A DNA stretch of 64,000 nucleotides from an uncultured bacterium (GTDB lineage: Bacteria; Cyanobacteriota; Cyanobacteriia; Cyanobacteriales; Microcystaceae): positions 48,576 through 112,575 of the forward strand of contig CAZUVR010000002.1 of NCBI GenBank assembly GCA_964623815.1, in the 5' to 3' direction. A model generated the notes under the pieces. That model was not told where the DNA came from, made no database searches, and was given only the letters and a program-made list of their open reading frames with translations. The position numbers and the translations under genes are program-made. Below are positions 19,795-62,752 of this stretch, one piece after another. Position 1 is the stretch's first letter, and each line of letters opens with the position of its first letter.

Positions 19795-19813
19795 AGGTTT
19801 TTGACTCCTTAAA

Positions 19814-41822: not shown

Positions 41823-41823
41823 A

Positions 41824-43368
41824 TTGCGCTACTATCACAATCTCTTCGCCTATCTCAACGGTAAAGTTGCCTCAGAGGGGAAAGTTTTAGAGGGCAAAAA
41901 TCGGCCCGTTTTAGAAGTTGAGGGAAGCATTTCCCATCACCCCGATTTAATCAATCGAGGCGGGGGAGTCTACGAGATAGGTTTTCCCTACCTGACTCCG
42001 GAAGACTGGCAACACCATCACCAACAGTTACAACAGGAGATTATTTTCTCCCTCGATAACGCCCATCACAGTCTATCGGTTACGGATGAAGTTATGGATA
42101 GCGGGGCCATTGAAGATGAGGAAGAATTACAAACATGGCAGAGAGAAGGGCGACAACATCTTTTAGATGATTCCGTAGCTTTGCTATTGCAAAATTTTAA
42201 CGAGTTGTTGAAAAGGGGCAGGAAGGAAGAGGGAATTTATCTCTATGAGTTGCTTTCCTATCTGAAGAATTTCAGTATCGCCGAGGCAAGCTTACCCCTG
42301 ATACTGAGTTTAGAGAGACGCTATGAATTAGCGGTGAAGTTACGGCAGATAACGCCGAAGTTACGGCATCAACTGCGACGGCAGGCGGAATCTATACCCA
42401 TAGGGCGCATTCAGGAGATGGATAGTTACTGTCTGCGCGACTATACCCGTCGCCCAGGAAATACGCCCGAGGAAAAAGCCGGCTCGCGGGGGGAATTGAT
42501 GGGCATACAACGCTATCAAGATTACAACACCGTGGAGAATAAATTTCTTGTTTACTTCGCGGCTAAATTACATCTAGAGGGTTTTCGCTATTTAGAGGCT
42601 GGTAATCACAGTTACACCGATAGCGTCAAGAAATTCCTACAGACTATCGATGTGTTTCGGGGGGATTGGATAGTCAGGAGTATCAACAGCAGAAATTTTC
42701 AATTCACCCGGCCTAATTACGTCCTACTCCAAAATCCTATCTATAGTAGTTTCTATCGGGCCTATCTAGATTATGTGGCTGGGCGCTCGGAAAAACAAGG
42801 CGTGTGGAGTGGGCGTAATCGTTTACTGGGAAACGTGGTTTATCTCTCTCTCCTGGCTGCCATCTTAAATTTCAACGGTGTTACCCACCCCGTAGACGTA
42901 TATATACCAATTAAGTCGTCACCGGATTACGGTGATTATCTGCCGAGAGATAATCCAGTGAAGACTCGGGTAACTATATTTCTGCGGCGCTGGGTTTACG
43001 AAATCGAGGTTAGCAAATCTTCCGATTACCGGGAGGGTGATTATCTTTTAAATATCGAAAGACAGGATTCCCATTCTCTCGCGTTAGAGAGTGAGGAATA
43101 CAAGTTACCGATTTGGGTGTTTTGGTATGGGCCTTCAGAGGAGGTTATAGCCTCGGCGCTTACTTATATGGAGGCGCGGAAGGATATTTACCGACTCGGC
43201 TTAATCTTCTCCCTCGGCGCGGGCGAAGGGGAAGTTAATCCTATATCGCCCTGTCTGTGGTGGTGTGAGATGCCTCTGCCGAATGGGGAGAGGGGCTTTC
43301 TCGATGGGGTTAATTTCTTCTCTGTCAAGGTGATTAAAAATTTGCTTGAGTTTCTCTATGGGGGTTGA
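41824..43368 (+). CDS. hypothetical protein, second gene of the McrB-like operon (possible McrC-like partner)
   Basis: 514 aa starting 2 nt after the ATPase stop (TTG start). No clear motif. A candidate PD-(D/E)xK-like D...ExK near the C-terminus (IERQD...SEEYK) is speculative. Confidence 0.5.
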   Translation: MRYYHNLFAYLNGKVASEGKVLEGKNRPVLEVEGSISHHPDLINRGGGVYEIGFPYLTPEDWQHHHQQLQQEIIFSLDNAHHSLSVTDEVMDSGAIEDEEELQTWQREGRQHLLDDSVALLLQNFNELLKRGRKEEGIYLYELLSYLKNFSIAEASLPLILSLERRYELAVKLRQITPKLRHQLRRQAESIPIGRIQEMDSYCLRDYTRRPGNTPEEKAGSRGELMGIQRYQDYNTVENKFLVYFAAKLHLEGFRYLEAGNHSYTDSVKKFLQTIDVFRGDWIVRSINSRNFQFTRPNYVLLQNPIYSSFYRAYLDYVAGRSEKQGVWSGRNRLLGNVVYLSLLAAILNFNGVTHPVDVYIPIKSSPDYGDYLPRDNPVKTRVTIFLRRWVYEIEVSKSSDYREGDYLLNIERQDSHSLALESEEYKLPIWVFWYGPSEEVIASALTYMEARKDIYRLGLIFSLGAGEGEVNPISPCLWWCEMPLPNGERGFLDGVNFFSVKVIKNLLEFLYGG

Positions 43369-44824
43369 AATGTTTTTAGAAGATATGGGGCAATCTTTAC
43401 CCCTTAATCCGACTCCGCCTTTACAGTTACTGTGGAAAACTTGGAGTGAGGGGAGTGTATTTCTAGAAACTCCTTCGCCGGGGCAACTCAAAACTATTAT
43501 TCCCTCCCTGCCCCTGAGTCACTATCAAGAGACGGCCTTAAAGTTATGTCTCCATAGCCCGCTGATGGTAATTGAGGGGGTGCCGGGTAGCGGGAAAACT
43601 CGTCTCGGGAAAGTCTTGTGTGAAGGTTTGCGGCAACAGCATAAAAAAGTTTTGCTATTGAGTCACCATGAAGCTACTCTATCAGCTTACAAAATTCGAT
43701 CGCGCGGTGTGCCGGAGTCATCGCCCTTCCCCCGTATCGACATGGATTTTCTACCTCCCCACCTACTGCCGGATTATCTATTAAGGGCTTTACGGAAGGG
43801 GGGAAAGTTAGAGAAGTGGGTGGCAATCCTCCGCGATGGTAGCCAGGAAATCGATTCCCTGTTAGCTTCCGAATTCCCTGACATTCCTAAAGCGAGATTA
43901 AATTTACTAAAACTGCGGCTTCAGAATTCATTACCCCTACTGGAAAAACAATTAGCCCTACAACAGCAATCGGCGCGGTTATCGGATGAGGCTTTAGCGT
44001 CTCTGTTATCCGAGTGCGGGGCGTTACCTATCTCGACAACGGTAGCCCAATTTTTTCAACCGGCAAATAAAGAAGCCCAGAAAGCTACTTTTGATTGCAT
44101 CATCGTGGAGGAGTCGGAATATCTAGAGTGGCCCGAATTGGCTTCGCTGGCGACTATGACTGATAAGCTAATCCTCTTAGGTGACTTAAACATCGAGCGC
44201 GTTTATCGGCAGAGGAAAGATTTTTCAGAGTTTGCCCCTTTTGAGTGGTTGAGTCAATATTTATGCCCCGCCTATCGCTATCGACTACCGCAGCAGTTTC
44301 GCCTACATTTTAGTATCGCTCGGCCGATTATCGGGAGTCTTTACAGGAATACGGTTATCGAGACGGCATACAGACACGATAGCCTCCATCTTCCCGTATT
44401 ATTCCATAGATGGGGGTGGCAGGAGGTGCGATCGCTCCCCGCCGACGATATAAATACTATCGAGGGCCGGCGTTTACTCCAATACCTGACGAGGCTTGAT
44501 GGTATCCCTTCCGACGCGATAGGAGTATTAACCTTTACCACCCGTCAGAAGCAATGGTTACGGGAAAACCTCCCCGCCGGATGGGAAGGGGTTTTTATAG
44601 GTAATATCGAGGATTGGGCGGGGAAAGAGATACCCATACTCCTCATCAGTTGCGTGGGTTATCCCGAAAAGTTGAAGCGGCAGGATTTAAAAATCGCCCT
44701 AACCCGTTGCCGGGATTATCTAATTCTTTTCGGTAACGGTAAACAGTGGCTAAAATTCGTCTCGCCGTTACAATCTCTGCTGACGGCTGAGGAAATACAA
44801 AGAGAGAGAGAGGTGTTGATATGA
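43346..44824 (+). CDS. compact Upf1-like SF1 helicase-family protein (AAA_11/AAA_12)
   Basis: Motif I is EGVPGSGKT. Motif II is degenerate, IIVEESE in place of DEAsQ. Motif III is LILLGD, motif IV-like is YRYRLPQQFR, motif V is GNIEDWAGKEIPILLISCV (compare TVD.FQG.E.D.IILS.V), and motif VI is LKIALTRCRDYLILFGN. Only 492 aa. The likely ATG at 43370 overlaps the upstream stop (tgaaATG). Confidence 0.7.
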   Translation: MSFSMGVEMFLEDMGQSLPLNPTPPLQLLWKTWSEGSVFLETPSPGQLKTIIPSLPLSHYQETALKLCLHSPLMVIEGVPGSGKTRLGKVLCEGLRQQHKKVLLLSHHEATLSAYKIRSRGVPESSPFPRIDMDFLPPHLLPDYLLRALRKGGKLEKWVAILRDGSQEIDSLLASEFPDIPKARLNLLKLRLQNSLPLLEKQLALQQQSARLSDEALASLLSECGALPISTTVAQFFQPANKEAQKATFDCIIVEESEYLEWPELASLATMTDKLILLGDLNIERVYRQRKDFSEFAPFEWLSQYLCPAYRYRLPQQFRLHFSIARPIIGSLYRNTVIETAYRHDSLHLPVLFHRWGWQEVRSLPADDINTIEGRRLLQYLTRLDGIPSDAIGVLTFTTRQKQWLRENLPAGWEGVFIGNIEDWAGKEIPILLISCVGYPEKLKRQDLKIALTRCRDYLILFGNGKQWLKFVSPLQSLLTAEEIQREREVLI

Positions 44825-46485
44825 AATTCGAGATAACTTTATCGGGGGTTTTCCAACGTCTGCCCGTAGATGATGAAAAGAAGGCGGCGAGTTTAGAAGA
44901 TTGGCTGAGTTCGATACGGGGGGCGGCGCAGGAAGTTAGGGGGGCTAACCTATCCAATCTCTACCGTGATTTCGGTTTGGGTTTTCTCCCGGGCCGTAGC
45001 GTCGAGAAATTATTGAAACAGACGGATAGGGGCGATAACCTGTACTTACTAGATGGGCTTAAGCGTCTTTATCCTCTAGCCCAATATCCTAACCCTGGTT
45101 TCTGCCTCTACGAATATATATTCACCGGGGAAGGTTTTTGCTTGCGCCTCTCTCCCGATGACTCTCAATTACCCGCGTTTACCTCTGGGATTGTCGAGGG
45201 CAGTTACCGCCTCGTCATCGATAACTTCTCTCACCCCGGTATCTCCGTAGAATATTTAAAAAATTGGTATAGACTAATAAAAATATTTTGGGATTATTCA
45301 TCCTCCGTACAGTTAGAGAGGGCGATGATGTTTTCGGGGGGAGAGATATATTATTCGCCGCCCGCTCATCAGGAAATAAAAGTGATTGCTTCCGTCTCCG
45401 AGTTAAGCCCTACCGTACAATCGGCCCTATCTTATTTACGGGGTAACGTTGCCTGGGATGGGTTATCATCCCAGAGTCGGGATTTGATTAAAGAGTATCG
45501 AGAGAGATATTATTTTCCTCCGGTTTCCTTAGAGTTACCACCGAGTTTAGATATGGATACGGGGGAGGCCCAGCATACTTTAATTGTAGGGAAAGGGCAG
45601 AGGGAAAAGATAGAAGCGATCGTATCTTCGGCGGAGAGATTCCTACTGGTATCGAGTCATATTATAGAAGATAGAGCGATCGTAGAATTAATCTGTGATA
45701 AAGCTCTTACCCTCCCTGGCGGTGTCTGGATATTAACCGATACGAGAGACAGACTCATAGATAAAGTAGAATCCTCCCCCGCAGAAACCCGAGTCGATAG
45801 ATACGAACAAACTAACGTCAGGAAGCGAGAGTGTTTGAACTTATTATTGGAAGCCGGAGTATCTATTAGAGGCGGCGCATTCCATCTCAAAACCATCATC
45901 TCCGAAAATGAGGCTTATTTAGGCTCGTGTAATTTGACTCGGGGCAGTTTAGATATTAACGGCGAGTCGGGCTTAATCTGTCGGCATACCCAAACCCATC
46001 AGGGTTTATACCGTTATTTCCTCAAGTGCTGGCAACACCTCGCTCGACACGAAATCTGCCCGACTCCCGGCGGATTACTACGGCGAGATTTACCCCGCGC
46101 TGCCCCCATAGCCTTCGGTAGCGAAACCCTTCTCACCCCCGCTCAATACAAGTCGGATTTAAAAAAATCTCTCATAGAAGGTAATCAACCGGTAACTATA
46201 TATACTCGCGGCTTGAGTATGGATGAGGAATTAGAATCGTTACTGCGATTCCGCCGCCCGAGGATATATATGGATGTGGAGGGATACAAAGAAGAAAAAA
46301 CCTTCCCCGTTTATTATCGCCCGAAACTTCACGCCAAGATTACCCTCATCGGTGACGACATCGCCTATATAGGAGGCGTTAACTTTCAATTCGACCGCGA
46401 CAGTTTGAAGTTAATCGATTTGATGTACAAAACCACCGACACATCAGAAATCCGGCAAATTCAGCAAAACCTACCAAACCTGTAA
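44821..46485 (+). CDS. phospholipase-D family (HKD-motif) nuclease-like protein
   Basis: 554 aa with two divergent HKD motifs, FHLKTIISENEAYLGSCNLT and LHAKITLIGDDIAYIGGVNF (H.K, then acidic residue, then G[SG].N). Its start overlaps the helicase stop in an ATGA. Confidence 0.65.
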   Translation: MKFEITLSGVFQRLPVDDEKKAASLEDWLSSIRGAAQEVRGANLSNLYRDFGLGFLPGRSVEKLLKQTDRGDNLYLLDGLKRLYPLAQYPNPGFCLYEYIFTGEGFCLRLSPDDSQLPAFTSGIVEGSYRLVIDNFSHPGISVEYLKNWYRLIKIFWDYSSSVQLERAMMFSGGEIYYSPPAHQEIKVIASVSELSPTVQSALSYLRGNVAWDGLSSQSRDLIKEYRERYYFPPVSLELPPSLDMDTGEAQHTLIVGKGQREKIEAIVSSAERFLLVSSHIIEDRAIVELICDKALTLPGGVWILTDTRDRLIDKVESSPAETRVDRYEQTNVRKRECLNLLLEAGVSIRGGAFHLKTIISENEAYLGSCNLTRGSLDINGESGLICRHTQTHQGLYRYFLKCWQHLARHEICPTPGGLLRRDLPRAAPIAFGSETLLTPAQYKSDLKKSLIEGNQPVTIYTRGLSMDEELESLLRFRRPRIYMDVEGYKEEKTFPVYYRPKLHAKITLIGDDIAYIGGVNFQFDRDSLKLIDLMYKTTDTSEIRQIQQNLPNL

Positions 46486-46489
46486 TCCT

Positions 46490-48805
46490 ATGACATACCT
46501 TTATCATCTCGACTCCTATATCGATTTTTATGCCGATACCGCGATATACAACCAGGAAAACCTCAGCCCGTCTGCCCAATCCTATAAAAATTTTCTCACA
46601 GGTAAGGGGCAATCTGGATATAGATGGGATACGGGGCTATCGGAAGAATTATCCATCGCCGATAACGGGCTGAAAAGATTAGGGATAGAGATAGGGCAAG
46701 ATGGAAGTAATCGGCGTTTATACGTTATCCCGGATAATATCAATCTGCTGGCGTTAAGAAACCTTATCGGCATCGGCGACACTTATATATATAAGACTGC
46801 TTATTATTACTGGAATAATCTCAGGCAAATACTCAAGTTTGCCGATTTAAACAAACCCGTAACTTTTATCGATTTGAATAGTCTCGGCGGCGATTGTGTA
46901 TCTTCGATTAATTTCGCGCGTCATCAAAGTTGTGAGTATCCTATTCCTATCCTCGATAACCGTAATAAAGAAACAGAAAATCACAATTTCTCGGCGCGGG
47001 AGATTTATAATAACATCCTGGAAGAGTTAGCCAAAGAAATCCTCAAGCCTTATCATTCCAAATTGCAGAGTTATGAAACTTGCCAGCAACATCTAGTTAC
47101 CGGGTGGAAGAAGCGAAAATTATTACAATCGTTGAAATTAGATAGCCCATCGATAGTTATTCCCTGCGAAATCCTGCAAGGCGAGAAAGTTTATTACAAG
47201 GCTTTGCCCTTAGCGAAAGAGAGAATAGAAAAAACTATACTCAATCATATTAAACCAGCTTTAGAGGAATTGCGATCGCTCTCCTCAAACCCGGTGGTTA
47301 TCAATCCCTATGAGTGTTTACATCTCTCACCTCGGGAAAATATAACCGTTTTACCCTTTAGATGTCTCAATTTCCCGCAGGTTTGGCAATCGAGGCGAGA
47401 AAAATACTTTCCCTTATTCGGACAGTATTTAGAACAAATAGAATTTGAGGTTAAAGATGAAAATAAGCAATCTTTATGGCTCAAGCTTTTCTCAGAAGAT
47501 GAGCAAGAGAATATTTTTTATGAAGGAGATGGACGGGAAAAAACATTTATAGGTCAGATTAAAGAAAAAGGGCAAAATTATTTTAAGCTAAAATCTAAAA
47601 TATCACGGTTGCCTATAAAAATTAACGGTAAATCTTACAAGATAAATGGAGAGGAACAAGTATATAAGATAAGCCATACCAACGAAATAAAAGAAAGTGA
47701 ATCTATAAATATCCGTATAGAATTTATAATTAATGTTGGCTCAACACCTAAATTAAAAGCAACTAATTGTAGTGACAATTTAGAAATTCAATCAGAACTA
47801 GTCACTATACCTAAGCTGACATTTATTCCCTTAGAGCGTTTAAAAGAAGCGAGGGATAAAAAATTATCTTCTGAACAAGTTGAGAAAATAGAATCTGTAA
47901 TTAGCTTAGTGGGCGAGTTGGCAAGCAGATCTAGAATTTCCAATTTAAGCATTCAACGAGATGACAAAATAAGAGAAATATATACTATTATCAAACCTAT
48001 ATATGATAAATTGAGAAAAACTAACAAAAAAGAATCAGATATTTTATCAAATCTTAATAACAAGTGTTATCCTTTACTTGAAGATTTATTAAATAATATT
48101 TATCTTCAAGATATTGTTAATTTAATTAGAGATTATATGAGCATCACAACTATTGATATTTCCACCGATCTCAGAAAGAAAATATCTGACCATATGAATA
48201 TACTTTTCATTTTTATAGGCAAACTATATCAATTTTCTAAAGTTTTGCCTTTAGATTATTTTCATGAAACTAGCAATATAAACAGTGGTATCAAGATATA
48301 CAAGAGAGAATATTATTATTTTTTAGCTAGATCTAGCTACACGGAGGAGCGACAAATAAAGTATTTTAAACTATTCAACATGAAAGACTGGACAGGGAAA
48401 TTTTATTATTATAATAAACACTACTTATGGGGTTATGGACGTGTTTTACTTTGGTATTTTAACTATAATTACGATAATATTAAAAATTCTATATCGTATT
48501 ATCAGCATTTTCAAGATTTATGTAGTTATTTAATAAGGCATCAATCAAGCTTAGAAAAAGAGAACAAAACCAATGCTTTTCTTTGTTTAATATATTTATT
48601 AAATTTTAGAGAAAAAGATTTAGGATTTTGCACTTTAAATACTAAAGAATATAGATTGGGGCAAGAAGTGATTAATAGATATACAACAGAAAAAATTACT
48701 TTGAGAGCGGTATCTGAAAAAAAAGCTCTCAATCAATATTTTCAAGAACTTTTAGAGGGAACGATGAGCGAGGCAGAGATCGGAGGTTTATTAGAATTGG
48801 ACTAA
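46490..48805 (+). CDS. hypothetical large protein; 3' half markedly AT-rich
   Basis: 771 aa starting 5 nt after the PLD gene stop. No recognisable motif. The C-terminal ~450 aa are K/N/I/Y-rich and coincide with a drop in GC (~47.4-48.8 kb). Confidence 0.55.
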   Translation: MTYLYHLDSYIDFYADTAIYNQENLSPSAQSYKNFLTGKGQSGYRWDTGLSEELSIADNGLKRLGIEIGQDGSNRRLYVIPDNINLLALRNLIGIGDTYIYKTAYYYWNNLRQILKFADLNKPVTFIDLNSLGGDCVSSINFARHQSCEYPIPILDNRNKETENHNFSAREIYNNILEELAKEILKPYHSKLQSYETCQQHLVTGWKKRKLLQSLKLDSPSIVIPCEILQGEKVYYKALPLAKERIEKTILNHIKPALEELRSLSSNPVVINPYECLHLSPRENITVLPFRCLNFPQVWQSRREKYFPLFGQYLEQIEFEVKDENKQSLWLKLFSEDEQENIFYEGDGREKTFIGQIKEKGQNYFKLKSKISRLPIKINGKSYKINGEEQVYKISHTNEIKESESINIRIEFIINVGSTPKLKATNCSDNLEIQSELVTIPKLTFIPLERLKEARDKKLSSEQVEKIESVISLVGELASRSRISNLSIQRDDKIREIYTIIKPIYDKLRKTNKKESDILSNLNNKCYPLLEDLLNNIYLQDIVNLIRDYMSITTIDISTDLRKKISDHMNILFIFIGKLYQFSKVLPLDYFHETSNINSGIKIYKREYYYFLARSSYTEERQIKYFKLFNMKDWTGKFYYYNKHYLWGYGRVLLWYFNYNYDNIKNSISYYQHFQDLCSYLIRHQSSLEKENKTNAFLCLIYLLNFREKDLGFCTLNTKEYRLGQEVINRYTTEKITLRAVSEKKALNQYFQELLEGTMSEAEIGGLLELD

Positions 48806-48874: not shown

Positions 48875-49519
48875 ATGATGGCTCAAACTTTACTAAAATT
48901 TCCTTCTAGGACAGTCTTAACCGGGGTGCGGTGGCAAACTTATCAAGGACTGCTGAGCGATTTAGCGGAGAATCCTGGTAAAAGACTAACATACGATCAA
49001 GGCATATTAGAGATCATGACTCCACTGCCGGAACACGAAATTAATAAAGGCTTCTTAAGCAGGCTGGTACAGACAGCGACTGAGGTATTGGGGTTAGAAG
49101 TCTTAAGCCTCTGTTCTACAACCTTAAGCCGGGAGGACTTACAGAAAGGGATTGAACCCGATGAGTGTTATTACATTACGAACGAGGCTCTAGTAAGGAA
49201 TAAGACCTATTTTAATTTTAGCGTCGATCCGGCTCCCGACTTAGCGATCGAAGTAGATATTACCAGTAGTTCTCTCAATCGGCTAGGAATTTACGCCGCT
49301 TTAGAAGTCAGTGAATTATGGCGATTCGACTGCGAGAATTTATCGATTTATTGTTTGCAATCTGGAAATTACCGAGAGGGGGAAAAGTCTAGGATTTTAC
49401 CGATTCTTTCCAAAACGATAATTTTGGAGTTTTTAAGAAAAAGGGGCGAAATGGGAGAAAATGCTTTACTTAAAGAGTTCCGTCAACGGTTACAAACTAT
49501 TGACCAGGAAACCAGATAA
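48875..49519 (+). CDS. Uma2-family (DUF820) putative restriction endonuclease-like protein
   Basis: 214 aa with a PD-(D/E)xK-like core in the Uma2 arrangement (LTYDQGILEIMTPLPEHEINKGFL...DLAIEVDITSSSLNRLGIYAALEVSELW). Confidence 0.7.
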   Translation: MMAQTLLKFPSRTVLTGVRWQTYQGLLSDLAENPGKRLTYDQGILEIMTPLPEHEINKGFLSRLVQTATEVLGLEVLSLCSTTLSREDLQKGIEPDECYYITNEALVRNKTYFNFSVDPAPDLAIEVDITSSSLNRLGIYAALEVSELWRFDCENLSIYCLQSGNYREGEKSRILPILSKTIILEFLRKRGEMGENALLKEFRQRLQTIDQETR

Positions 49520-49555
49520 AATTACTTCAGAGAGACTGCTTCGGTCATAGAAAGG

Positions 49556-50278
49556 CTAGGGAGAATTAGCTTGATTTGTTAATACCCACTTAAGAAATGC
49601 GTCTCCTATTCCTGGTTGTCCGTCTTGATTAACTTTATTTTTATATTCGTTCAAGATTATCCATTGATTATCTATAACTATAGTGCCGTTTATTTGTATT
49701 TCTCTCAAGTATTGTCCAGTGCGTAACTTACACTCACTGGTAACTTGAGGACAATCTCTCCCATTAGCGGCGATTAAAACATTAGTATCAATGATGATAG
49801 CCAATTCTCCTCTACGGCCTACATCCTGTGGTTTTTCTCCTGCCCAAGAGTAAATTCTTTTTGGATACTCTTTCAGAGGGCCGAGATAATAGAGTTTTTC
49901 AAAGGCTTGCTCATAGGCTAAAGTGAAGAAGGGTAAAAAATCGGCATTTTGAAAGTAATTAACTGGTTGGTTTGGGAATCCATAATGTTTAAGTGGTGGT
50001 GGTAGGGTTAGATATTTATCTGTGCTACTTATAATTTTATAAACCTCTGATTTAAGTTCGTAATTTAATAAATTATATTCTGATTTTTTCTGTTCGCCTG
50101 TATTTAAAACCCGTTGACGATCGCTTGATTCAACAGTCTGTTTTAAAAGCAGAAAGAATTGGATGATGCTAGATTTTCCCGAGCTGTTATTTCCGAAAAA
50201 TCCAGTGATATTGGCGAAGGAGATATTTCCGGTATCTTGCCAAGATTTAAAATTTTTAAATTTGATAGTTTTAAACAT
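49556..50278 (-). pseudogene. truncated AAA (RecF/OLD-like, AAA_15-type) ATPase N-terminal fragment with PIN-like tail; probable gene remnant
   Basis: 240 aa. The N-terminus IKFKNFKSWQD...ITGFFGNNSSGKSSI is the Walker-A region of AAA_15/OLD-type ATPases, but no Walker B or C-terminal domain follows. The tail AIIIDTNVLIAANG resembles a PIN-domain N-terminal strand. Too short for either full domain. Confidence 0.4.
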
Positions 50279-50404
50279 ATTTGAACCACAGAGGACACAC
50301 AGGTGATTATAAAGAGAGGGTGAAAGAGCAGGGATTTTGAACTATGATCCTCCTATAGGCGAGGTGAAGTTACAAATATTATTCCCAGTCTCCCACAAAG
50401 ATTT

Positions 50405-51712
50405 ATGATACCCTCCTCCCTCTGTTACTCGCTCCTGTTACTAAGCGCCCTAATGGCCTTCCTAATCGCCGCGGTGAGCAACTTAAATCTCGGCCTCTTA
50501 GCATTAGCCCTTCTCGACGCGATTATCGTAACCCTCACCATCATTGACATACTAAGGGTGAGAAATCAAACCATAGGAGTTAAACGCTTATCCAACACTC
50601 GCCTCTCAGTAGGTAGAGACAACCCGATGACACTTCAGGTAACAGGTAGTAGATACGAAGCCGAAGTAATTATTAAAGATGGTTATCCCCGAGAATTCCA
50701 CGTCTCGAAAGACGCTTTCTGGATTAAAGTCAAAGCTCACAGTAAATCCTGCCTAACCTATACTATAAAACCCGATCGCAGGGGTCGAGTCACATGGGAT
50801 ACTATTTCTGTCCGCCAGAGAGGGAGATGGGGGTTAGGCTGGTACGCATGGCAAACCCACACCGGCGAAGAAGTGACAATTTACCCGGATTTAATGACCA
50901 TACGCGCTCTATCAATCCGCCTCACCCTAGAAAACACCGGAAGTATGAGACGAGCGCGACGACTCGGCACCGGTACGGAATTCGCCGAGTTAAGGGAATA
51001 CAACCGGGGGGATGACTTACGCTTCATGGATTGGAAGGCTACAGCCAGAAGAAACACCCCCTTTATCAGAGTCTTAGAACCAGATAGGGAACAATCCCTG
51101 ATCATACTCCTAGATAGGGGACGTTTGATGACCTCGCGGGTGCGGGGTTTATTACGCTTCGACTGGGGTTTAAACGCCGCCCTCTGCCTCGCTACCGCCG
51201 CCCTGCATCGCGGTGATAAAGTAGCAGTGGGCGTATTCGATCGAGAGATGACCACATGGATACCCCCTCAGCGCGGTCAATCCCATCTCGGACATCTGAT
51301 CGAGCAACTCTCACCCCTACAACCGGTTTTATTAGAGCCAGATTATGCCTCTGCCGTCTCCTCCCTCGTCAATCACCAATCTCGCCGCGCCCTGGTGGTA
51401 TTGATCACCGATATTGTCGATGCCACCGCCTCCTCGGAATTATTGGGAGCCATGACCCGATTAGCCCCCCGCTATCTCCCCTTTTGCGTCACCCTCCGCG
51501 ATTGTGTAGTGGATACTATCGCTTGCACAGAGAGCGACGAGGCTCGCAAAGCCTATGAAAGAGCCGTCGCTTTAGACCTATTATCCCAACGGGAGAACGT
51601 CTTCGCCCGCCTCAAGTCCAAGGGGGTGTTAGTATTGGACGCTCCCGCCGACGCTATCAGTGAAACCCTAGTCGATCGCTATCTGACCCTGAAAGCTCGC
51701 TCTCTTTTGTGA
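50405..51712 (+). CDS. DUF58 domain protein (vWA-like, MoxR-associated family)
   Basis: The N-terminus has two TM helices. The DUF58 signature FAELREYNRGDDLRFMDWKATARRNTPFIRVLEPDREQSLIILLDRGRLM is present. Confidence 0.8.
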   Translation: MIPSSLCYSLLLLSALMAFLIAAVSNLNLGLLALALLDAIIVTLTIIDILRVRNQTIGVKRLSNTRLSVGRDNPMTLQVTGSRYEAEVIIKDGYPREFHVSKDAFWIKVKAHSKSCLTYTIKPDRRGRVTWDTISVRQRGRWGLGWYAWQTHTGEEVTIYPDLMTIRALSIRLTLENTGSMRRARRLGTGTEFAELREYNRGDDLRFMDWKATARRNTPFIRVLEPDREQSLIILLDRGRLMTSRVRGLLRFDWGLNAALCLATAALHRGDKVAVGVFDREMTTWIPPQRGQSHLGHLIEQLSPLQPVLLEPDYASAVSSLVNHQSRRALVVLITDIVDATASSELLGAMTRLAPRYLPFCVTLRDCVVDTIACTESDEARKAYERAVALDLLSQRENVFARLKSKGVLVLDAPADAISETLVDRYLTLKARSLL

Positions 51713-51713
51713 T

Positions 51714-52742
51714 ATGCTAGAACAAAATAGCCATACCCGTGCCGATAGTTTAAAAGCAGGTCATAATCGTAACCGAATAAAGATGTTACCGCCTCCGGGG
51801 AAAGCACCTTACGGTTATCGCCGGGGTAAAGATAAATACATCATCGATAAAAGTACCGCCCCAGTCGTCAAAGAATTTTTCGAGCATTTTCTTCGTTACG
51901 GTTCCCTACGAGGGGCAGTGAAATTTTTAGAGAAGCGTTTCGGTAAAAAGATAGCCCTGTCAACCGGTAGAAACTGGCTGACGAATCCCGTGTATAGGGG
52001 GGATTTACAGTATAAAACCAGGGATATTATCACCGATACCCACGCGGCGCTAATTTCGCGGGAAACGGCGGCGGCGATCGATCGACTCCTCCGCAGTCAT
52101 CGAAAACTAGCGCCCAAAACCTCCAGCGCTAAACGCAGTCTCGCGGGCTTAGTTTTCTGCACCACCTGTCAATCGCCTTTCACCGTCACCAAGGTCAAAC
52201 CCAAGGGTAAAAAAACCGAATACCTATATATCCGCCCGACTCAATGCCCGCGTAACCCCCATTGTAGAAGCCTCAATTATCAATCCGTACTCGGGAAGGT
52301 TATCGAAGCTATCTGTAAGGAATTACCGCTTACAGTCTCCAAATTAACCCTACCTAATTTAGAAAATGTTAGGAATCAAATAATAGAAGAGATCAGAGAG
52401 AAAGAAGCGATAATTAATCGTCTTCATCAATTGCAAGATGAGGGAATATTAGATGAAGCTAGTAAAGATTTAAGGCAATATAATTTAAAAACCGAGATAG
52501 CCCGATTACAGCTACAATTTAACGGGTTGCCTCCTGGTGATTTGAAAATCATCACTCAATCTGTTTGTTTACCGCGTTTCTGGGAAGATTTATCGGAAGA
52601 AGAGAGACGGTTTTATTTTCGGGAGTTTATCGAGAGAGTAGAGATAGATTATGGAAATAGTGAAAATTATCAATTGAGAATTATTTTTGTTTTCGAGAGT
52701 ATGATTGAACCACAGAGACACAGAGGGCACAGAGGAGATTGA
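51714..52742 (+). pseudogene. large-serine-recombinase remnant (Recombinase domain + zinc ribbon + coiled coil, catalytic resolvase domain absent)
   Basis: GKAPYGYRRGKDKYIIDKSTAPVVKEFFEHFLRYGSLRGAVKFLEKRFG...GRNWLTNPVYRGD matches the 'Recombinase' domain. LAGLVFCTTCQSPF...RPTQCPRNPHC is the Zn-ribbon. No Ser-nucleophile resolvase domain precedes it, because the DUF58 gene ends 2 nt upstream. Confidence 0.55.
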
Positions 52743-52868: not shown

Positions 52869-54320
52869 ATGCCTAAAACAGTAGTAATCGATCCCGTGAC
52901 GCGCATCGAAGGCCATGCCAAAATATCCATTTATCTCGACGACGGCGGCAAAGTCGATGATGTGCGCTTTCACGTAGTCGAATATAGAGGTTTTGAAAAA
53001 TTTTGTGAAGGTCGTCCGATGTGGGAGATGGCTGGGATTACCGCCAGAATTTGCGGGATATGCCCAGTGAGTCACCTGCTCTGTGCGGCTAAAACCGGCG
53101 ATAAAATCTTAGCGGTAGCGGTGCCGCCAGCGGGTGAAAAACTCCGTCGCTTGATGAATTTGGGGCAGATAACCCAATCCCACGCTCTGAGTTTCTTCCA
53201 TCTTAGCAGTCCCGATTTCCTTTTAGGTTGGGATAGTGACCCAGCGAAGAGAAACGTCTTCGGCTTGATCGAACACGATGCGGAATTAGCCCGCAGCGGT
53301 ATCCGGTTACGCCAATTCGGACAGAAAATTATCGAGTTATTGGGAGCAAAAAAAATTCACCCGGCTTGGTCAGTACCTGGGGGTGTACGTTCTCCATTAT
53401 CCGATGAAGGGAGACAATGGATTAAAGAGCGTCTACCGGAATCTAAAGATAGTATCCGCAACGCCTTAAATCTCTTTAAAGGGTTGCTAGACGGTTTGAG
53501 TGAAGAAGTAGCCGCCTTCGGAGAATTTCCATCCCTATTTATGGGATTGGTGGGTAAAGATGGCGAGTGGGAACATTACGGCGGACATATTCGTTTTACT
53601 GATAGTCAGGGGAATATAGTAGCCGATAATCTCAGCGAGGATAATTATCGGGATTACATCGGGGAATCAGTGGAAAAATGGTCTTACTTGAAATTCCCTT
53701 ACTATAGACCTTTAGGTTATCCCGATGGAATTTATCGAGTCGGGCCCCTAGCGCGATTGAACGTCTGTAGTCATTTCGGCACACCAGAGGCCGATCGAGA
53801 ATTAGAAGAATACCGTCAACGAGTCGGAGGTGTGGCCACATCTTCTTTCTATTATCACTACGCCCGATTAGTAGAGATTTTAGGGGCGTTAGAGGGGATA
53901 GAAAAGTTAGTAGATGACCCCGATATTATCTCATCTCGAACCCGCGCCGATGCCGGTATTAATAATCTCGAAGGCGTAGGCGTTAGTGAAGCACCTCGGG
54001 GAACCTTATTCCATCACTATAAAGTGGATGAAAATGGTTTAATTGAAAAGGTTAATTTAATCGTCGCCACTGGCAATAATAACCTAGCGATGAATAAAAC
54101 CGTCAAACAGATCGCTCAACATTACATCACTGATTCAGATATTACTGAAGGGATGCTAAACCGAGTCGAGGCGGGGATTAGGGCTTACGACCCATGTTTA
54201 AGCTGTTCCACCCACGCCATAGGACAAATGCCTTTGCATATTCAATTAATTGCTCCGAATGGTGAAGTTATCTCCGAAAAATATAGGGGTACAAATAATT
54301 TGCCACTGACTAAGCTTTAG
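52869..54320 (+). CDS. hoxH: [NiFe] bidirectional hydrogenase large subunit
   Basis: 483 aa. The N-terminal Ni-binding motif is RIEGHAKI...[10 protein letters not shown] and the C-terminal motif is [13 protein letters not shown]. The length and ends are typical of cyanobacterial HoxH. Confidence 0.85.
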
Positions 54321-54531: not shown

Positions 54532-55065
54532 ATGAATATTATTAAACTAAGTAGTAAATATATATTAGCGACGGCGGTATTAGCCGGTTGTGCCATCGGG
54601 GGCTTACAGACATACGCATCGGCTAACGGTAATCCAGGATTGACCATATTTAGCGGGGTCGATCGCAAAGATATATTAGATTATTATTTACAATTCGGTG
54701 GTCGTCCCCGTCAGACCGATCGCTATAAACTATATATACCGTCGAAAAAACTCGCTCAAGGAGCGTCAACTTTTTTCATCTCCTACCCGGATTATTTTGA
54801 TGGGAAATTTGACACGGATAAAATGGAAGTGAGAGTCAAGGGTCAAGCTCAACCTTTAAAAGATGTAGTTTGGGACAGAGAAAGCAGGCTCATCCAACTT
54901 ACCTTAGAAAAACCTATCGACCCCAATACTAACGTAGAAGTAGTTTTTTCCAACGTCAAGAACCCTAATTTCGGCACTTATTATTTCGTCTGTGATGTCT
55001 TAGCGGCGGGTAATATCCCTGTCCGTCTGTATGTTGGTACTTGGATAGTCGATATTGAAAATTAA
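54532..55065 (+). CDS. DUF2808 family secreted protein
   Basis: 177 aa with a signal peptide (ATAVLAGCAIGG). Its size and conserved YLQFGG...FFISYPDYFDG region fit cyanobacterial DUF2808. Confidence 0.5.
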   Translation: MNIIKLSSKYILATAVLAGCAIGGLQTYASANGNPGLTIFSGVDRKDILDYYLQFGGRPRQTDRYKLYIPSKKLAQGASTFFISYPDYFDGKFDTDKMEVRVKGQAQPLKDVVWDRESRLIQLTLEKPIDPNTNVEVVFSNVKNPNFGTYYFVCDVLAAGNIPVRLYVGTWIVDIEN

Positions 55066-55101
55066 ATCGACCGATGCAGGCTCTTAGCCTGCAAATATCT
55101 T

Positions 55102-56658
55102 TCATTGTGATTTAAAACTATTTTTCCATAAAGAGAAGGGGAAAGTAAAAATAAATCCTAAGACGAAGCCACTTATATGAGCTAATAGACTAACTTGAGG
55201 GGTATGATAGTCTACGAAAAACTGTATACCCAAGATGATAAGGAGCAGTAAAATTCTCCTGAGAGCGAACTGGGATCTATTCCTCAACCAATCCCTAACA
55301 TAAAAGGCTAAGATAGCCCCTATCAATCCCATAATAGCCGCCGAAGCTCCTACAAGCATGGTATCTAAAAGCTGATTCCGTCTGGCTAATAAAGTGAAAA
55401 TCAGTAACGAACCCGTGCCAGCGGCGAAATAGATGAAAGAGAAAAATATTCTACCGAGAATAAATTCCGCTATGCGGCCGATGAAAATTAAACCTAACAT
55501 ATTAGTGGCGAAATGAAACCAACCAAAATGGAGAAAATTAGCCGTGATAATGCGCCACCATTCTCCTTGAAAAACCGCAGATGGAACTAAAGCACCTAAC
55601 TTATAAAGAGTTGACTCATCCTGATTACCACCGAGCCAGATTTCGGCAACGAAGGCAGAAGTATTAATTAACAATAGGGATAAGGTGATATAAGGGATGC
55701 TCTTTTGAATAGATAAGTAAGAATGAGAGCGCAATTCCTGACTGAGTTCACCCGTGATTCGCTGTAGTATAGTTAAAGATGAGGAATCGAGTACGGAATT
55801 GGGGTCTGGAGGAGGGTAACACAAACGCCAATCGATCGCGTTACTTAAGATAAAATCTCTCTCTAAACGAATATCGAGTAATTGATGACGGCCTGCATAT
55901 TTATTAGCTCCGATTAATTGGACGCTAGATAACCAGAATTTTTGTAAATATTTAGGATAAAAACTCAAAAAACTATTAAATAACTGTTTTACTTGTAAAA
56001 TCTGACCGCAGAAAACTAAAACGTATAAACGGGCTAAATTAAGTTGATTGATGGTAGCTTTCTTCTTTAATAAAGGATAACGATCGGCGAAGACACTCAG
56101 TAATTGATTTAGTTTTCCGGTCTCTCCTAAAGCACGAATATAATAAATTAACAGTTCTGGATTCTGGCTTAGAACGGAGCGGGGGAGCTTTTCCATCCAA
56201 TCTAAACACTTATCCCAATCTGCTTTAATAAAATAAACAAGTACACGGGCTTGATAATCATCTTCGGAATAACTTTCTAAGCTTGCCACAGCCGAAAACA
56301 TATCGCCTCTCTGGGCAGTTTCTAGAATATTTAAAAGTTTAGGTAATCGTAAAAAACTAGGGAAGGGATGTAACCAGATTGAACGAGAAATTAGTATTCT
56401 TGCCTCTCGATACCTTTGTTGGTCAATTAACCAGTTTGTTCGGGAAAAAATCCTTTTAGGAACGGATAAAAAGACAATTAATGCTATCAATCCCAGCCAA
56501 CCTGCTTGCATGGGTAAAAACAGAAATAGAGATAAGGTAAGTAATAAAACCCCGAGAGAAACCCAAAGCCATTCAAAAGAGGAAGAGAAGAGAGAAGAAA
56601 GGATAGATAGGGAAGAGGAGATACAAACCAGGCAAACTAAAAGATAGTTTAAGAGCAT
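55102..56658 (-). CDS. rhomboid-family intramembrane serine protease with N-terminal extension
   Basis: The C-terminal rhomboid core is EWWRIITANFLHFGWFHFATNMLGL...GASAAIMGLIG, with a GxSG catalytic Ser and a downstream His (LAHISGFVLG). The N-terminal ~300 aa add 2 TM helices and TPR-like helices. Confidence 0.8.
   Translation of the reverse strand: MLLNYLLVCLVCISSSLSILSSLFSSSFEWLWVSLGVLLLTLSLFLFLPMQAGWLGLIALIVFLSVPKRIFSRTNWLIDQQRYREARILISRSIWLHPFPSFLRLPKLLNILETAQRGDMFSAVASLESYSEDDYQARVLVYFIKADWDKCLDWMEKLPRSVLSQNPELLIYYIRALGETGKLNQLLSVFADRYPLLKKKATINQLNLARLYVLVFCGQILQVKQLFNSFLSFYPKYLQKFWLSSVQLIGANKYAGRHQLLDIRLERDFILSNAIDWRLCYPPPDPNSVLDSSSLTILQRITGELSQELRSHSYLSIQKSIPYITLSLLLINTSAFVAEIWLGGNQDESTLYKLGALVPSAVFQGEWWRIITANFLHFGWFHFATNMLGLIFIGRIAEFILGRIFFSFIYFAAGTGSLLIFTLLARRNQLLDTMLVGASAAIMGLIGAILAFYVRDWLRNRSQFALRRILLLLIILGIQFFVDYHTPQVSLLAHISGFVLGFIFTFPFSLWKNSFKSQ

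Positions 56659-56844: not shown

Positions 56845-56846
<2 letters not shown>
56779..56846. repeat. STRR-like heptamer tandem array (CCCAACT/CCCGACT x ~4.7) with an upstream ggaattgg motif
   Basis: The array cccaact cccaact cccgact cccaact cccgatt lies immediately 3' of katG. It is preceded by ttaggggttaggaattggagg, which shares ggaattagg/ggaattgg with the MITE at 30.6 kb. Confidence 0.7.
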
Positions 56847-59076
<2,230 letters not shown>

Positions 59077-59397
59077 CTAGAGGCCAGGTATCGTAAGTAA
59101 ATAGCACCTGGCTAATTATCCAGATGTGCAAGAGTAATTAGTAAATAAGTATGAATTAGTTTCCTAGAGTGATTATCTAAAAATCTTAACTATTACATTA
59201 GCTAAGTATTAAATATTTCAACATTTCTTGAGATTTCACTAACGATGAATTCTTCTAGATTATATCCCCTTGAGATAAATTTTTATACTGTATTTATATC
59301 TTGTAATCATGGTTAACTAGACCGTGATTACAATGATCGACCATAACAAATTCTGTAATAAAGTCGGAGTGCGAAGGCGATGAAAACGGGGGTGTAT

Positions 59398-62300: not shown

Positions 62301-62598
62301 CTCGAAACATAGTCACCCAAGGGGGCAGATATTTCTCATCGGCGAGACGCACGTTACCCAGTAATAAGCTTAATTGCTCTTTATTCAGATCGTATTGAGC
62401 GAGGCGTAAGGCGAATTTCTCCTCATCACTTCCCCCTACTAAAGCTTTCCATCTATTCAATCTCTGCTCAATGAGCGATCGATCTTGCCGTTCATCATCG
62501 GATAGGAAAGCACCGCTCGATCTTTCCGAGAGGCTACTAGCTCTCTCGAAGATTTTTATCAAGTCCTGTGCGGAAATTTTCCGATTAAAATTCACCAT
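59398..62598 (-). CDS. lanM: class II lanthipeptide synthetase (LanM/ProcM-like)
   Basis: 1066 aa. The N-terminal ~650 aa form the LanM dehydratase region (DUF4135-like). The C-terminal LanC-like cyclase has GISHGAAGIALAL, WCHGAPGIGLARL, the Zn-ligand CCGNFGRLETLL and HNPGFFQGTAGIGYQLLRL. Confidence 0.85.
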   Translation of the reverse strand: MVNFNRKISAQDLIKIFERASSLSERSSGAFLSDDERQDRSLIEQRLNRWKALVGGSDEEKFALRLAQYDLNKEQLSLLLGNVRLADEKYLPPWVTMFRELVEAPMQKDEAAILDPHSPIPFEDIYLPFVQVARQKLLERVGEKWQLLTVAVQTSIVRKLLHKLHLLITASLYEEFDRGRKENLSPLLETEGKNTGYYRAFIEAMRGGKMIAFFQKYSVIARLMSVSIEHWIDEKAEFLGRLAEDLPLLETTFGAKLAQVTEIQLDLSEPHNRRRSVTGVTFAGGRTMIYKPRGMGMEAGFFQLLHWCNQQPNLLPLQLCKVIDRDTHGWMEFIHHQPCNSTTEAGNYYERAGMLLALLYILRGNDCHEENIISAGEQPILIDLETLFNPRVRVAEEQRGALSSIEERFFDSVLQCGLLPRWESTGGILEDVSGLGGTDINTPLRYKKWEMVNTDEMKLSYELKTQKPLKNTLWLQGKRLSPSDYSNRLLEGFEKMYRCLQYNSHVLTRGDGPLKLFAGRDIRFLFRPSDIYGQLLIKTIAPRLLQEGIDRSIEFEALARSFPDSAPRAVLAGEIESLERMDVPFFIANTGGDGLGIPEGAWIPGYFEGMSYETGRERLGRLGEEDLALQMQLIRGSLYSQKASGMSLSDRVEDIADVHISPLSETEALSTAIEIAIDLEKNAISTVTGHRSWIGLAYLPAHRRYQLQPLGDNLYDGVSGIALFLAALWALTREERFRRLCLSALGGPVADYLNIDTAGGLRFARQIGIGAGAGIGSIVYCLAKIANLIEEPKLLKVALKLADTLTPETVALDRSFDLIGGAAGAIVALLDLYGVRKDESVLERARNCGAHLLSHRVESTSGWRAWPVIDGELTTGISHGAAGIALALIRLYEVCPEEKFLQAAREAIGFESSLFDARRENWQDVESSPSFMIAWCHGAPGIGLARLGGLSSLDSDAIRQDIDTALKTTLKLGLQPIDHLCCGNFGRLETLLVASQVLNRRDLGEMAYQQAAVRVATAKRKGGFALTDEIPDAIHNPGFFQGTAGIGYQLLRLAAPEMVPSVLLWQ

Positions 62599-62682
62599 AG
62601 ATTTATCTCACTAAGTTAGGAAAAAACTAGCCCAGAGTAAGTAATACTAAATCCGTTTTTCATAGTAACCTTTTCCGATCCA

Positions 62683-62752
62683 GGGAGTAGAGAGTAGGGA
62701 GTAGGGAGTAGAAATATTTATCCCGATTCCCGACTCCCGACTCCCGATTCCC
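62683..62752. repeat. STRR-like heptamer hairpin (GGGAGTA x4 ... CCCGACT x4 inverted arms)
   Basis: gggagta gagagta gggagta gggagta - gaaatatttat - cccgatt cccgact cccgact cccgatt. The arms are imperfect reverse complements. It lies in the lanM upstream region and is the inverse-orientation relative of the 56.8-kb array. Confidence 0.7.

What the first reader, a model, noticed from the sequence alone, without database searches (positions are those of the whole stretch)
48875..52742. Decayed mobile/defence remnants flanking the operon: Uma2 endonuclease, truncated AAA/PIN gene, and a catalytic-domain-less serine recombinase
The 240-aa minus-strand ORF has only the Walker-A end of an OLD/AAA_15-type ATPase plus a PIN-like DTNVLI strand. 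The 342-aa ORF after DUF58 keeps the 'Recombinase' and Zn-ribbon domains of a large serine recombinase but lacks the resolvase catalytic domain. Together these suggest the 39-52 kb region is an old integrated island whose integrase has decayed.
Basis: partly seen in the sequence, partly recalled or inferred. Interest (0 to 1): 0.55.

Follow-up and report, generated by a model that had tools for sequence, protein, structure and literature searches.

The report
One dead defence gene, no decayed integrase
Of the three supposed remnants, only the 240-aa gene is real wreckage (of a known phage-defence pair); the Uma2 gene is intact, and the "recombinase without a catalytic domain" is a conserved, selected cyanobacterial chromosomal gene from a family that lost recombinase chemistry long ago, not the island's integrase.

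Summary
The sequence features are all present at the stated coordinates. Their joint reading as a decayed island with a decayed integrase does not hold.

- **Uma2, 48875-49519 (+):** a full-length Uma2/PDC-S17 gene.
- **240-aa ORF, 49556-50278 (-):** a dead chimera of the two-gene HEC-03 defence system. It joins ABC-ATPase residues 1-64 and about 151-247 in frame to PIN residues about 3-81, then stops.
- **DUF58, 50405-51712 (+):** a core cyanobacterial gene.
- **342-aa ORF, 51714-52742 (+):** belongs to a roughly 437-aa cyanobacterial family related to XisF.
  - The family sits among ordinary chromosomal genes in all eight distinct loci whose neighbours were annotated.
  - The full-length family has already lost catalytic residues (gamma-delta resolvase R68 to E, R71 to D; no conserved Ser).
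  - The N-terminal domain is cleanly absent here and in Chroococcopsis gigantea, which has the same boundary and shares the downstream DUF2808-rhomboid genes. It was lost independently in Aphanothece sacrum.
  - dN/dS is 0.09, so the short gene is under purifying selection.
  - The model matches the DNA-binding C-terminal module of large serine integrases.

I infer a non-catalytic DNA-binding protein. The stretch 39.4-50.3 kb looks like an accretion of defence genes, with no integrase, att repeats or adjacent tRNA.

The parts
48875..49519 (+). Intact Uma2-family (PD-(D/E)xK-type) putative endonuclease, 214 aa. It is a separate small gene 69 bp after the operon's last gene.
   Evidence: Pfam Uma2 9e-19, profile 8-148/172. 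PADLOC PDC-S17 3e-44, profile 16-197/199. The PDLAIEV motif is visible in the translation.
49556..50278 (-). Dead chimeric remnant of a two-gene HEC-03 defence cassette (ABC ATPase + VapC-like PIN), read as one 240-aa ORF.
   Evidence: PADLOC ATPase model 7e-47 in two stretches, plus PIN model 2e-17 at profile 2-78/159. Alignment to intact proteins. tblastn map. Intact ATPase-then-PIN cassettes in L018 and L021.
50087..50278 (-). Remnant segment 1: ATPase residues 1-64, including Walker A (GNNSSGKS). About 86 residues are lost in frame after it.
   Evidence: tblastn 77% identity to L018 ATPase residues 1-64.
49805..50089 (-). Remnant segment 2: ATPase residues about 151-247, ending at VGRRGELA. 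The remaining roughly 210 residues (Walker B, signature, DUF3696) are deleted.
   Evidence: tblastn and alignment. Domain content of the intact ATPase.
49562..49804 (-). Remnant segment 3: PIN-like protein residues about 3-81 of 162-175, fused in frame. The second half (FDPSDRKFVAVAL region) is missing and the stop is at 49556-49558.
   Evidence: 81-83% identity to P0149, P0150 and P0153 over residues 1-81, with no other trace in the window.
50405..51712 (+). DUF58/VWA protein, 435 aa. It is a core cyanobacterial gene, not island cargo.
   Evidence: Pfam DUF58 1e-32. Roughly 60%-identical 435-442-aa orthologues across cyanobacteria, and 79% in Chlorogloea purpurea SAG 13.99 with different neighbours.
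51714..52742 (+). N-terminally shortened member of a conserved, catalytically inert family related to XisF. It keeps the recombinase domain, zinc ribbon, coiled coil and conserved tail. A second possible start is Met24 at 51783.
52869..54320 (+). HoxH-like NiFe hydrogenase large subunit. It is present here between the recombinase-like gene and DUF2808 but absent at that place in the closest relative.
   Evidence: Pfam NiFeSe_Hases and precomputed HoxH. L001 lacks it.
54532..56658 (.). DUF2808 (54532-55065, +) and rhomboid (55102-56658, -). These are the synteny anchors shared with Chroococcopsis gigantea.
   Evidence: DUF2808 is 85% identical to L001.
39615..48805 (+). Five-gene candidate defence operon. 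Together with Uma2 and the HEC-03 remnant it makes up the defence-island-like stretch 39.4-50.3 kb.
   Evidence: Pfam AAA_5, DUF2357, SF1 helicase domains and PLD. PADLOC PDC-M26A 8e-44 for gene 1. The last gene has GC 0.33 and no family.

Best explanation
The flagged stretch holds four unrelated items, not the debris of one island.

1. **Uma2** is an intact small nuclease gene of a kind very abundant in cyanobacteria.
2. **The 240-aa ORF** is what three deletions left of an HEC-03 cassette. In that system an ABC ATPase sensor is paired with a VapC-like PIN effector. Here the ATPase lacks everything after the first third and the PIN lacks its second half, so it cannot work as HEC-03.
3. **DUF58** is a core gene.
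4. **The 342-aa gene** is the local orthologue of a chromosomal cyanobacterial family descended from an XisF-like large serine recombinase.
   - The family lost the catalytic arginines, and has no conserved nucleophile serine, before it diversified. It is therefore not a recombinase.
   - In the common ancestor of this organism and Chroococcopsis gigantea the inert N-terminal domain was deleted. The remaining recombinase-domain / zinc-ribbon / coiled-coil module has since been kept by purifying selection.
   - Inferred, not shown: the protein works as a sequence-specific DNA-binding protein, regulatory or architectural, that associates with itself or partners through the coiled coil.

The stretch 39.4-50.3 kb is best read as a defence-gene accretion zone where modules are gained and eroded, without a detectable integration apparatus.
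For: **HEC-03 remnant.**
- PADLOC hits to both HEC-03 models.
- Residue-level map against intact proteins.
- Intact adjacent ATPase-then-PIN genes in two different genomic contexts.
- HEC-03 was experimentally shown to defend, and to need both genes (bioRxiv 10.1101/2024.01.29.577857).
- GC3 of 0.29 against a window GC of 0.457.

**Uma2.** Near-full profile coverage.

**DUF58.** Conserved across cyanobacteria.

**Recombinase-like gene.**
- Of the 120 best homologues listed (2346 reach E <= 1e-5), 112 are 420-450 aa, at about 54-62% identity across cyanobacterial groups. The other eight are shorter: the window protein, its 334-aa and 331-aa counterparts, and fragments such as the 384-aa entry labelled partial.
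- Housekeeping neighbourhoods in eight distinct loci with annotated neighbours. A small glyoxalase gene lies directly upstream in 10 of 16 loci compared, where only that adjacency was checked.
- Both the HMM and hhalign align family LLIRRLEELGD to gamma-delta ILVKKLDRLGRD. This gives D67 to E, R68 to E and R71 to D.
- The N-terminus reads AYSYSDP and position 9 varies among S, T, C, R and I. The N-domain has no invariant Ser or Arg.
- XisF is the best NCBIfam model but scores far below its cutoff, 131-134 bits against 375.
- The 334-aa orthologue in C. gigantea / Chlorogloea purpurea has the same boundary, a shared Met at the RNRIK-M-LPPPG position, and the same downstream DUF2808-rhomboid genes.
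- dN 0.18, dS about 2.0, dN/dS 0.09.
- An independent 331-aa version exists in Aphanothece sacrum, whose nearest relatives are full length.
- The AlphaFold model (pLDDT 78) matches the C-terminal-domain/DNA complex of a large serine integrase, 4KIS, at E = 5e-14. The PDB profile hit is 3e-9.
- Four zinc-ribbon cysteines are invariant.
Against: - DNA binding and any regulatory role are inferred from fold and conservation only. No target site, expression data or phenotype is available.
- dS is saturated, so the ratio is approximate. The selection argument also assumes that the truncation predates the split from C. gigantea. The upstream neighbours differ (DUF58 here, glmS there), so two separate truncations at the same boundary cannot be strictly excluded.
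- I could not search the rest of the source genome for a second full-length copy or a stand-alone N-domain.
- The R8 and S10 equivalents were judged by position and column variability. The profile alignments did not cover the first 22 residues.
- The 240-aa remnant has no internal stop and both internal deletions are in frame. That is mildly unexpected for old wreckage.
- The island status of 39.4-50.3 kb rests on gene content and on the composition of two genes. No relative with conserved flanks was available.
Confidence: 0.8

Rival explanations
1. One reading: 39-52 kb is one old integrated island, and the 342-aa ORF is its integrase, decaying after loss of the catalytic domain.
For: - The ORF has large-serine-recombinase C-terminal domains without a resolvase domain.
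- It lies near defence genes and a true remnant.
- Two nearby genes have deviant GC.
Against: - Orthologues sit in housekeeping contexts in eight distinct annotated loci.
- The full-length family already lacks catalytic residues.
- dN/dS is 0.09 against the equally short C. gigantea orthologue, with shared downstream synteny.
- The core gene DUF58 lies between it and the defence genes.
- No att repeats and no adjacent tRNA.
- No resolvase fragment anywhere in the window.
Confidence: 0.04
2. Gene fission: the N-terminal domain is encoded elsewhere in the genome, and the two polypeptides work together.
For: - The N-domain is moderately conserved in full-length members (mean column identity 0.72), so it does something.
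- A profile search found many short proteins that carry only the N-domain.
Against: - All twelve short hits whose sequences I read look like contig-end fragments, frameshifted calls, or genes ending shortly after the N-domain.
- For the two short hits whose contigs I fetched, tblastn shows the rest of the gene continuing in the adjacent DNA.
- There is no N-domain anywhere in this 64-kb window.
- Even if reunited, the domain lacks catalytic residues.
- The rest of the genome could not be searched.
Confidence: 0.07
3. The short recombinase-like ORFs are recent, independent pseudogenes that have not yet accumulated stops. The low dN/dS would then reflect time spent as full-length genes.
For: - The upstream neighbours differ between the two genomes.
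- N-terminal truncation happened at least twice in the family.
Against: - Same boundary to within one codon.
- A shared Ala-to-Met change at the putative internal start, and a shared leader motif RADS.KAGH.
- The two proteins are each other's closest relatives, 74% against at most 64%.
- Intact ORFs in three genomes, with gene-dense upstream junctions.
Confidence: 0.06
4. The 240-aa ATPase-PIN fusion is a functional new gene, for example a regulator or decoy, rather than wreckage.
For: - It is an uninterrupted ORF.
- Two internal deletions are both in frame, a chance of about 1 in 9.
Against: - It lacks Walker B, the signature motif, the DUF3696 part and half of the PIN fold.
- The cluster look-up found this exact protein only as a singleton, on 3 contigs, and no other hit covered more than 70% of it.
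- HEC-03 needs both complete genes.
Confidence: 0.05

Closest known systems
Large serine recombinases / integrases (A118/LI integrase 4KIS, PhiC31, Bxb1; cyanobacterial XisF)
   Same: - Recombinase domain, zinc ribbon with four Cys, and an embedded coiled coil.
- Best sequence model is XisF.
- Best structural matches are integrase C-terminal domains bound to DNA.
   Different: - No catalytic domain at all in this gene.
- In full-length relatives the domain is present but R68 and R71 are replaced by acidic residues, and no Ser is conserved.
- Chromosomal housekeeping context, with no mobile element or att sites.
- An extra, highly conserved C-terminal tail, FWxDLSExERRFYFREFI.
HEC-03 phage defence system (ABC ATPase + PIN; Payne et al., bioRxiv 10.1101/2024.01.29.577857)
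   Same: The 240-aa ORF is built only from pieces of these two proteins, in the native gene order ATPase then PIN.
   Different: - About 65% of the ATPase and half of the PIN are deleted, and the two are fused into one frame.
- The system needs both complete genes, so this copy is non-functional as HEC-03.
Uma2 (DUF820) putative restriction endonuclease family / PADLOC candidate PDC-S17
   Same: Full-length match to both models.
   Different: Nothing notable. Defence activity of PDC-S17 is only a candidate assignment.
Integrative genomic / defence islands
   Same: - Clustering of defence-type genes.
- An eroded module.
- Two genes of deviant composition.
   Different: - No integrase, no flanking direct repeats, and no adjacent tRNA (the only tRNA is about 10 kb away).
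- Boundaries cannot be set, because the nearest available genome is rearranged on the left side.

Membership tests
Large serine recombinase (catalytically competent) | N-terminal resolvase catalytic domain present | tested here: not met
   No Pfam Resolvase hit in the 342-aa protein. No fragment in any frame of the window.
Large serine recombinase (catalytically competent) | Catalytic residues (gamma-delta numbering: nucleophile S10; R8, R68, R71) in the family's full-length members | tested here: not met
   R68 to E and R71 to D by HMM and hhalign alignment. There is no invariant Ser or Arg in the N-domain and position 9 varies. R8 and S10 were judged by position only.
Large serine recombinase (catalytically competent) | Recombinase domain plus zinc-ribbon domain with coiled coil | tested here: met
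   Pfam Recombinase 1e-10 and Zn_ribbon_recom 1e-5. Invariant C149, C152, C178 and C184. Model helices at 189-270 and Foldseek 4KIS at 5e-14.
Large serine recombinase (catalytically competent) | Encoded at the edge of a mobile element with att sites | tested here: not met
   Housekeeping neighbours in eight distinct annotated loci. No flanking repeats in the window.
XisF (NCBIfam NF041201 equivalog) | Score at or above the curated cutoff of 375 bits | tested here: not met
   130.7 bits for the window protein and 134.1 bits for full-length P0003.
HEC-03 defence system | Complete ABC ATPase (Walker A, Walker B/signature, DUF3696 C-terminus) | tested here: not met
   Only residues 1-64 and about 151-247 of about 458 remain. 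The intact protein's C-terminal AAA_15, AAA_21 and DUF3696 matches lie at residues 266-444.
HEC-03 defence system | Complete PIN-domain partner as a separate downstream gene | tested here: not met
   Only residues about 3-81 of 162-175 remain, fused in frame.
HEC-03 defence system | Sequence homology to both components | tested here: met
   PADLOC 7e-47 and 2e-17. 77-83% identity to intact homologues.
Uma2 (PF05685) | Score above the gathering threshold with near-full domain coverage | tested here: met
   68 bits against 27, profile 8-148/172. PDC-S17 profile 16-197/199.
Uma2 (PF05685) | Nuclease activity | not testable with these tools
   Only the PDLAIEV-type motif was seen in the translation.
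Integrative genomic island | Own functional or decayed integrase, flanking direct repeats, tRNA or other att target | tested here: not met
   The candidate integrase is excluded (see above). No convincing flanking repeats. The only tRNA, Leu, is at 29567.
Integrative genomic island | Absent from an otherwise collinear site in relatives | tested here: inconclusive
   The nearest genome shares only the recombinase-like, DUF2808 and rhomboid genes. Its DUF58 and upstream genes are elsewhere. The source species is not in the genome collection.

The most novel reading that the evidence does not exclude
Cyanobacteria carry a widespread, vertically inherited, catalytically dead descendant of an XisF-like large serine recombinase. 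It is often paired with a small glyoxalase-fold gene. It has been repurposed as a DNA-binding factor, regulatory or architectural. Its inert N-terminal domain is dispensable, having been shed at least twice independently. I found no description of such a family in the searchable literature.
Probability: 0.5. Interest if true: 0.55.

Novelty: new variant of a known kind. Interest (0 to 1): 0.4.

Why it matters
**For annotation.** A Recombinase/zinc-ribbon protein near defence genes should not be taken as an island integrase without checking orthologue context and catalytic residues.

**For biology.** The useful lead is a conserved family of exapted large-serine-recombinase proteins in cyanobacteria.
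- If they are DNA-binding factors, they would be a clear bacterial case of a serine integrase's DNA-recognition module being domesticated.
- Their target sites could be found with standard assays.

The HEC-03 wreck is an ordinary example of turnover in defence loci.

Tried and rejected
- **Missing resolvase domain in the window.** I used tblastn with 115 family N-termini, a family HMM and gamma-delta resolvase against six-frame fragments. Nothing was found.
- **att-like repeats and tRNAs around 37-55.5 kb.** Only short chance-level repeats turned up, and one distant tRNA-Leu.
- **Promoter and terminator scan of 48.7-54.6 kb.** Counts were at or below shuffle expectation and uninformative.
- **Island boundaries from relatives.**
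  - The genome scan did not contain the source species, and the nearest genome is rearranged.
- **Gene fission, tested with an N-domain profile against 1.8 billion representatives.** The short hits I inspected are fragments, frameshifted calls or genes ending shortly after the N-domain.
- **Literature.** Three searches for a described inactive or domesticated serine recombinase in cyanobacteria gave nothing relevant.
- **PDB sequence search for Uma2.** No hit.
- **hoxH adjacency.** I considered a heterocyst-type excision element (XisF-like) interrupting or flanking hoxH. I rejected it for three reasons:
  - hoxH is intact.
  - The recombinase-like gene is inert.
  - In the relative, the recombinase-like gene has the same downstream neighbours without hoxH.
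Full report
**1. What is at the coordinates**

The ORF scan shows a 214-aa ORF (48875-49519, +), a 240-aa ORF (49556-50278, -), a 435-aa ORF (50405-51712, +) and a 342-aa ORF (51714-52742, +).
- Uma2.
- An N-terminal-only AAA_15/AAA_21/AAA_23 match.
- DUF58.
- Recombinase plus Zn_ribbon_recom, with no Resolvase domain.

**2. Uma2**

The protein covers profile positions 8-148 of 172 of Pfam Uma2, well above threshold. It covers 16-197 of 199 of the PADLOC candidate PDC-S17, at E = 3e-44. It is an intact gene, not a remnant. A PDB sequence search found no solved relative.

**3. The 240-aa ORF**

A homologue search returned two separate classes of hit:
- ATPases of about 360-460 aa with AAA_15, AAA_21 and DUF3696 domains, matching the first two thirds of the ORF.
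- Proteins of 162-175 aa with no Pfam domain, 75-83% identical to its last 80 residues.

Alignment and tblastn give the following map:

| Source piece | Window coordinates | Note |
|---|---|---|
| ATPase residues 1-64, with Walker A | 50278-50087 | followed by an in-frame loss of about 86 residues |
| ATPase residues about 151-247, ending VGRRGELA | 50089-49805 | the remaining roughly 210 ATPase residues are lost |
| Small protein residues about 3-81 | 49804-49562 | fused in frame; stop at 49556 |

Nothing else of either gene is present in the window.

In intact loci the ATPase gene is followed 4 nt later by the small gene, in two unrelated genomic contexts. PADLOC identifies the pair as HEC-03. 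The intact proteins score 1.5e-162 and 1.2e-40, and the window ORF hits both models. The small protein has a weak PIN_3 match.

HEC-03 is an experimentally supported ABC-ATPase/PIN defence system in which both genes are required (bioRxiv 10.1101/2024.01.29.577857). The window copy lacks Walker B, the signature motif, DUF3696 and half of the PIN fold, so it is dead as HEC-03. Its GC3 of 0.29 is far below the window GC of 0.457.

**4. DUF58**

This is a core cyanobacterial gene. Orthologues of 435-442 aa at about 60% identity occur across many lineages. The closest, at 79%, is in Chlorogloea purpurea SAG 13.99, where its neighbours are different. It is not island cargo.

**5. The 342-aa gene**

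*Family and context.* Of the 120 best homologues listed (2346 reach E <= 1e-5), 112 are 420-450 aa, at about 54-62% identity. They come from Gloeothece, Rippkaea, Planktothrix, Kamptonema, Phormidium, Oculatella and others. The other eight are shorter: the window protein, the 334-aa and 331-aa forms discussed below, and fragments such as a 384-aa entry labelled partial. In the distinct loci whose neighbours were annotated, the gene sits among ordinary chromosomal genes. In 10 of 16 loci compared, a 119-121-aa glyoxalase-fold gene lies directly upstream.

*Loss of chemistry.* The family's N-terminal domain is a recognisable but weak Resolvase match, covering profile positions 46-140 only. Both HMMER and hhalign align family LLIRRLEELGD with gamma-delta resolvase ILVKKLDRLGRD. 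That means D67 to E, R68 to E and R71 to D. The N-terminus reads MKIIAYSYSDP rather than the YARVST type. The serine at position 9 varies among S, T, C, R and I, and the domain has no invariant Ser or Arg. The whole family is thus very unlikely to carry out serine-recombinase chemistry. Its closest curated model is XisF, at 131-134 bits against a cutoff of 375.

*The truncation.*
- The window protein begins at family position about 113.
- The 334-aa orthologue in Chroococcopsis gigantea SAG 12.99 / Chlorogloea purpurea is 74% identical and begins within one codon of the same point.
- Both short forms have Met where full-length proteins have Ala or Cys (RNRIK-M-LPPPG). In the window this is codon 24 at 51783, a possible true start.
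- Both are followed by the same DUF2808 and rhomboid genes, and the window has hoxH inserted between.
- dN is 0.18, dS about 2.0 and dN/dS 0.09. This is strong purifying selection on the short form.
- A third short form (331 aa, Aphanothece sacrum FPU1) has full-length proteins as its closest relatives at 72%. It starts 65 nt after leuC, so it is an independent loss.
- No N-domain fragment exists in the window.
- A profile search for stand-alone N-domains gave no clear genuine stand-alone protein among the hits inspected. They are contig-end or frameshifted fragments, or genes ending shortly after the N-domain. In the two cases whose contigs I fetched, the rest of the gene continues in the adjacent DNA.

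*What remains.* The AlphaFold model (pLDDT 78) has the recombinase domain, a zinc ribbon with four invariant Cys, a long coiled coil and a small conserved C-terminal unit. Its best structural matches are C-terminal-domain/DNA complexes of large serine integrases, led by 4KIS at E = 5e-14.

From this I infer a DNA-binding, non-catalytic role. That function is not demonstrated.

**6. The island hypothesis**

There are no att-like repeats around 37-55.5 kb. The only tRNA is at 29567. The supposed integrase is excluded, and DUF58 and the recombinase-like gene are core genes.

What remains, 39.4-50.3 kb, comprises:
- A five-gene candidate defence operon. Gene 1 hits PDC-M26A, and the last gene has GC 0.33 and no family.
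- Uma2/PDC-S17.
- The HEC-03 wreck.

That is defence-island-like. Its boundaries and origin could not be set, because the source species is absent from the genome collection and the nearest genome is rearranged.

**7. Verdict**

- The central claim of a decayed integrase is refuted.
- The most interesting by-product is an apparently undescribed, conserved, catalytically inert family derived from a large serine recombinase in cyanobacteria, with recurrent loss of its N-terminal domain. Three literature searches found no description.

Noticed in passing
window 52869-54320 (+): A HoxH-like NiFe hydrogenase large subunit with intact N- and C-terminal Cys motifs stands alone. None of the window ORFs I scanned against Pfam is another hox or hydrogenase subunit. 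In Chroococcopsis gigantea the flanking genes (recombinase-like and DUF2808) are adjacent, so hoxH was inserted here or lost there.
   Followed up: partly
window 39615-48805 (+): A five-gene operon: McrB-like AAA_5 (PADLOC PDC-M26A 8e-44, partial), DUF2357 (McrC-like), SF1 helicase (weak MkoA), PLD nuclease (weak DrmC), and a 771-aa protein. The last has no hit in Pfam, PADLOC or NCBIfam and a GC of 0.33.
   Followed up: partly
L003 9579-9938; L024 4636-5001; L008-L015 about 9160-9655: A small glyoxalase/VOC-fold gene lies directly upstream of the full-length recombinase-like gene in 10 of 16 loci, from Gloeothece, Phormidium, Floridaenema and Argonema. This conserved pair is absent next to all three N-truncated versions.
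   Followed up: partly
L029 505-1800; L030 563-1830: A recombinase-like homologue aligns over residues 1-423, but only a 118-aa ORF is called. It therefore has in-frame stops or frameshifts, meaning a pseudogene or an assembly error.
   Followed up: partly
PADLOC-DB models PDLC04147/PDLC04148 versus bioRxiv 10.1101/2024.01.29.577857: The A and B labels of HEC-03 are swapped between the HMM names (B is the ATPase) and the paper's text (A is the ATPase).
   Followed up: no
window 19814-25090 (-): A 1758-aa ORF has no Pfam match. It lies next to a 250-aa protein with a prepilin-type N-terminal methylation motif (19141-19893).
   Followed up: no
window 56845-63996 (-): KatG-type catalase-peroxidase, a class II lanthipeptide synthetase (LanM, 1066 aa) and a CHAT-domain protein. 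GC is 0.52-0.54 for KatG and LanM, higher than in the neighbouring genes.
   Followed up: no
window 8286-10589 (-) and 14235-15407 (+): A NACHT NTPase (767 aa) and a 390-aa RuBisCO-large-chain-like protein. The latter's ORF overlaps the 5' end of a GFO/IDH/MocA oxidoreductase ORF on the opposite strand.
   Followed up: no
L027 11219-11551: In Chlorogloea purpurea SAG 13.99 an XisI-family gene lies immediately after DUF58, in a non-heterocystous lineage.
   Followed up: no
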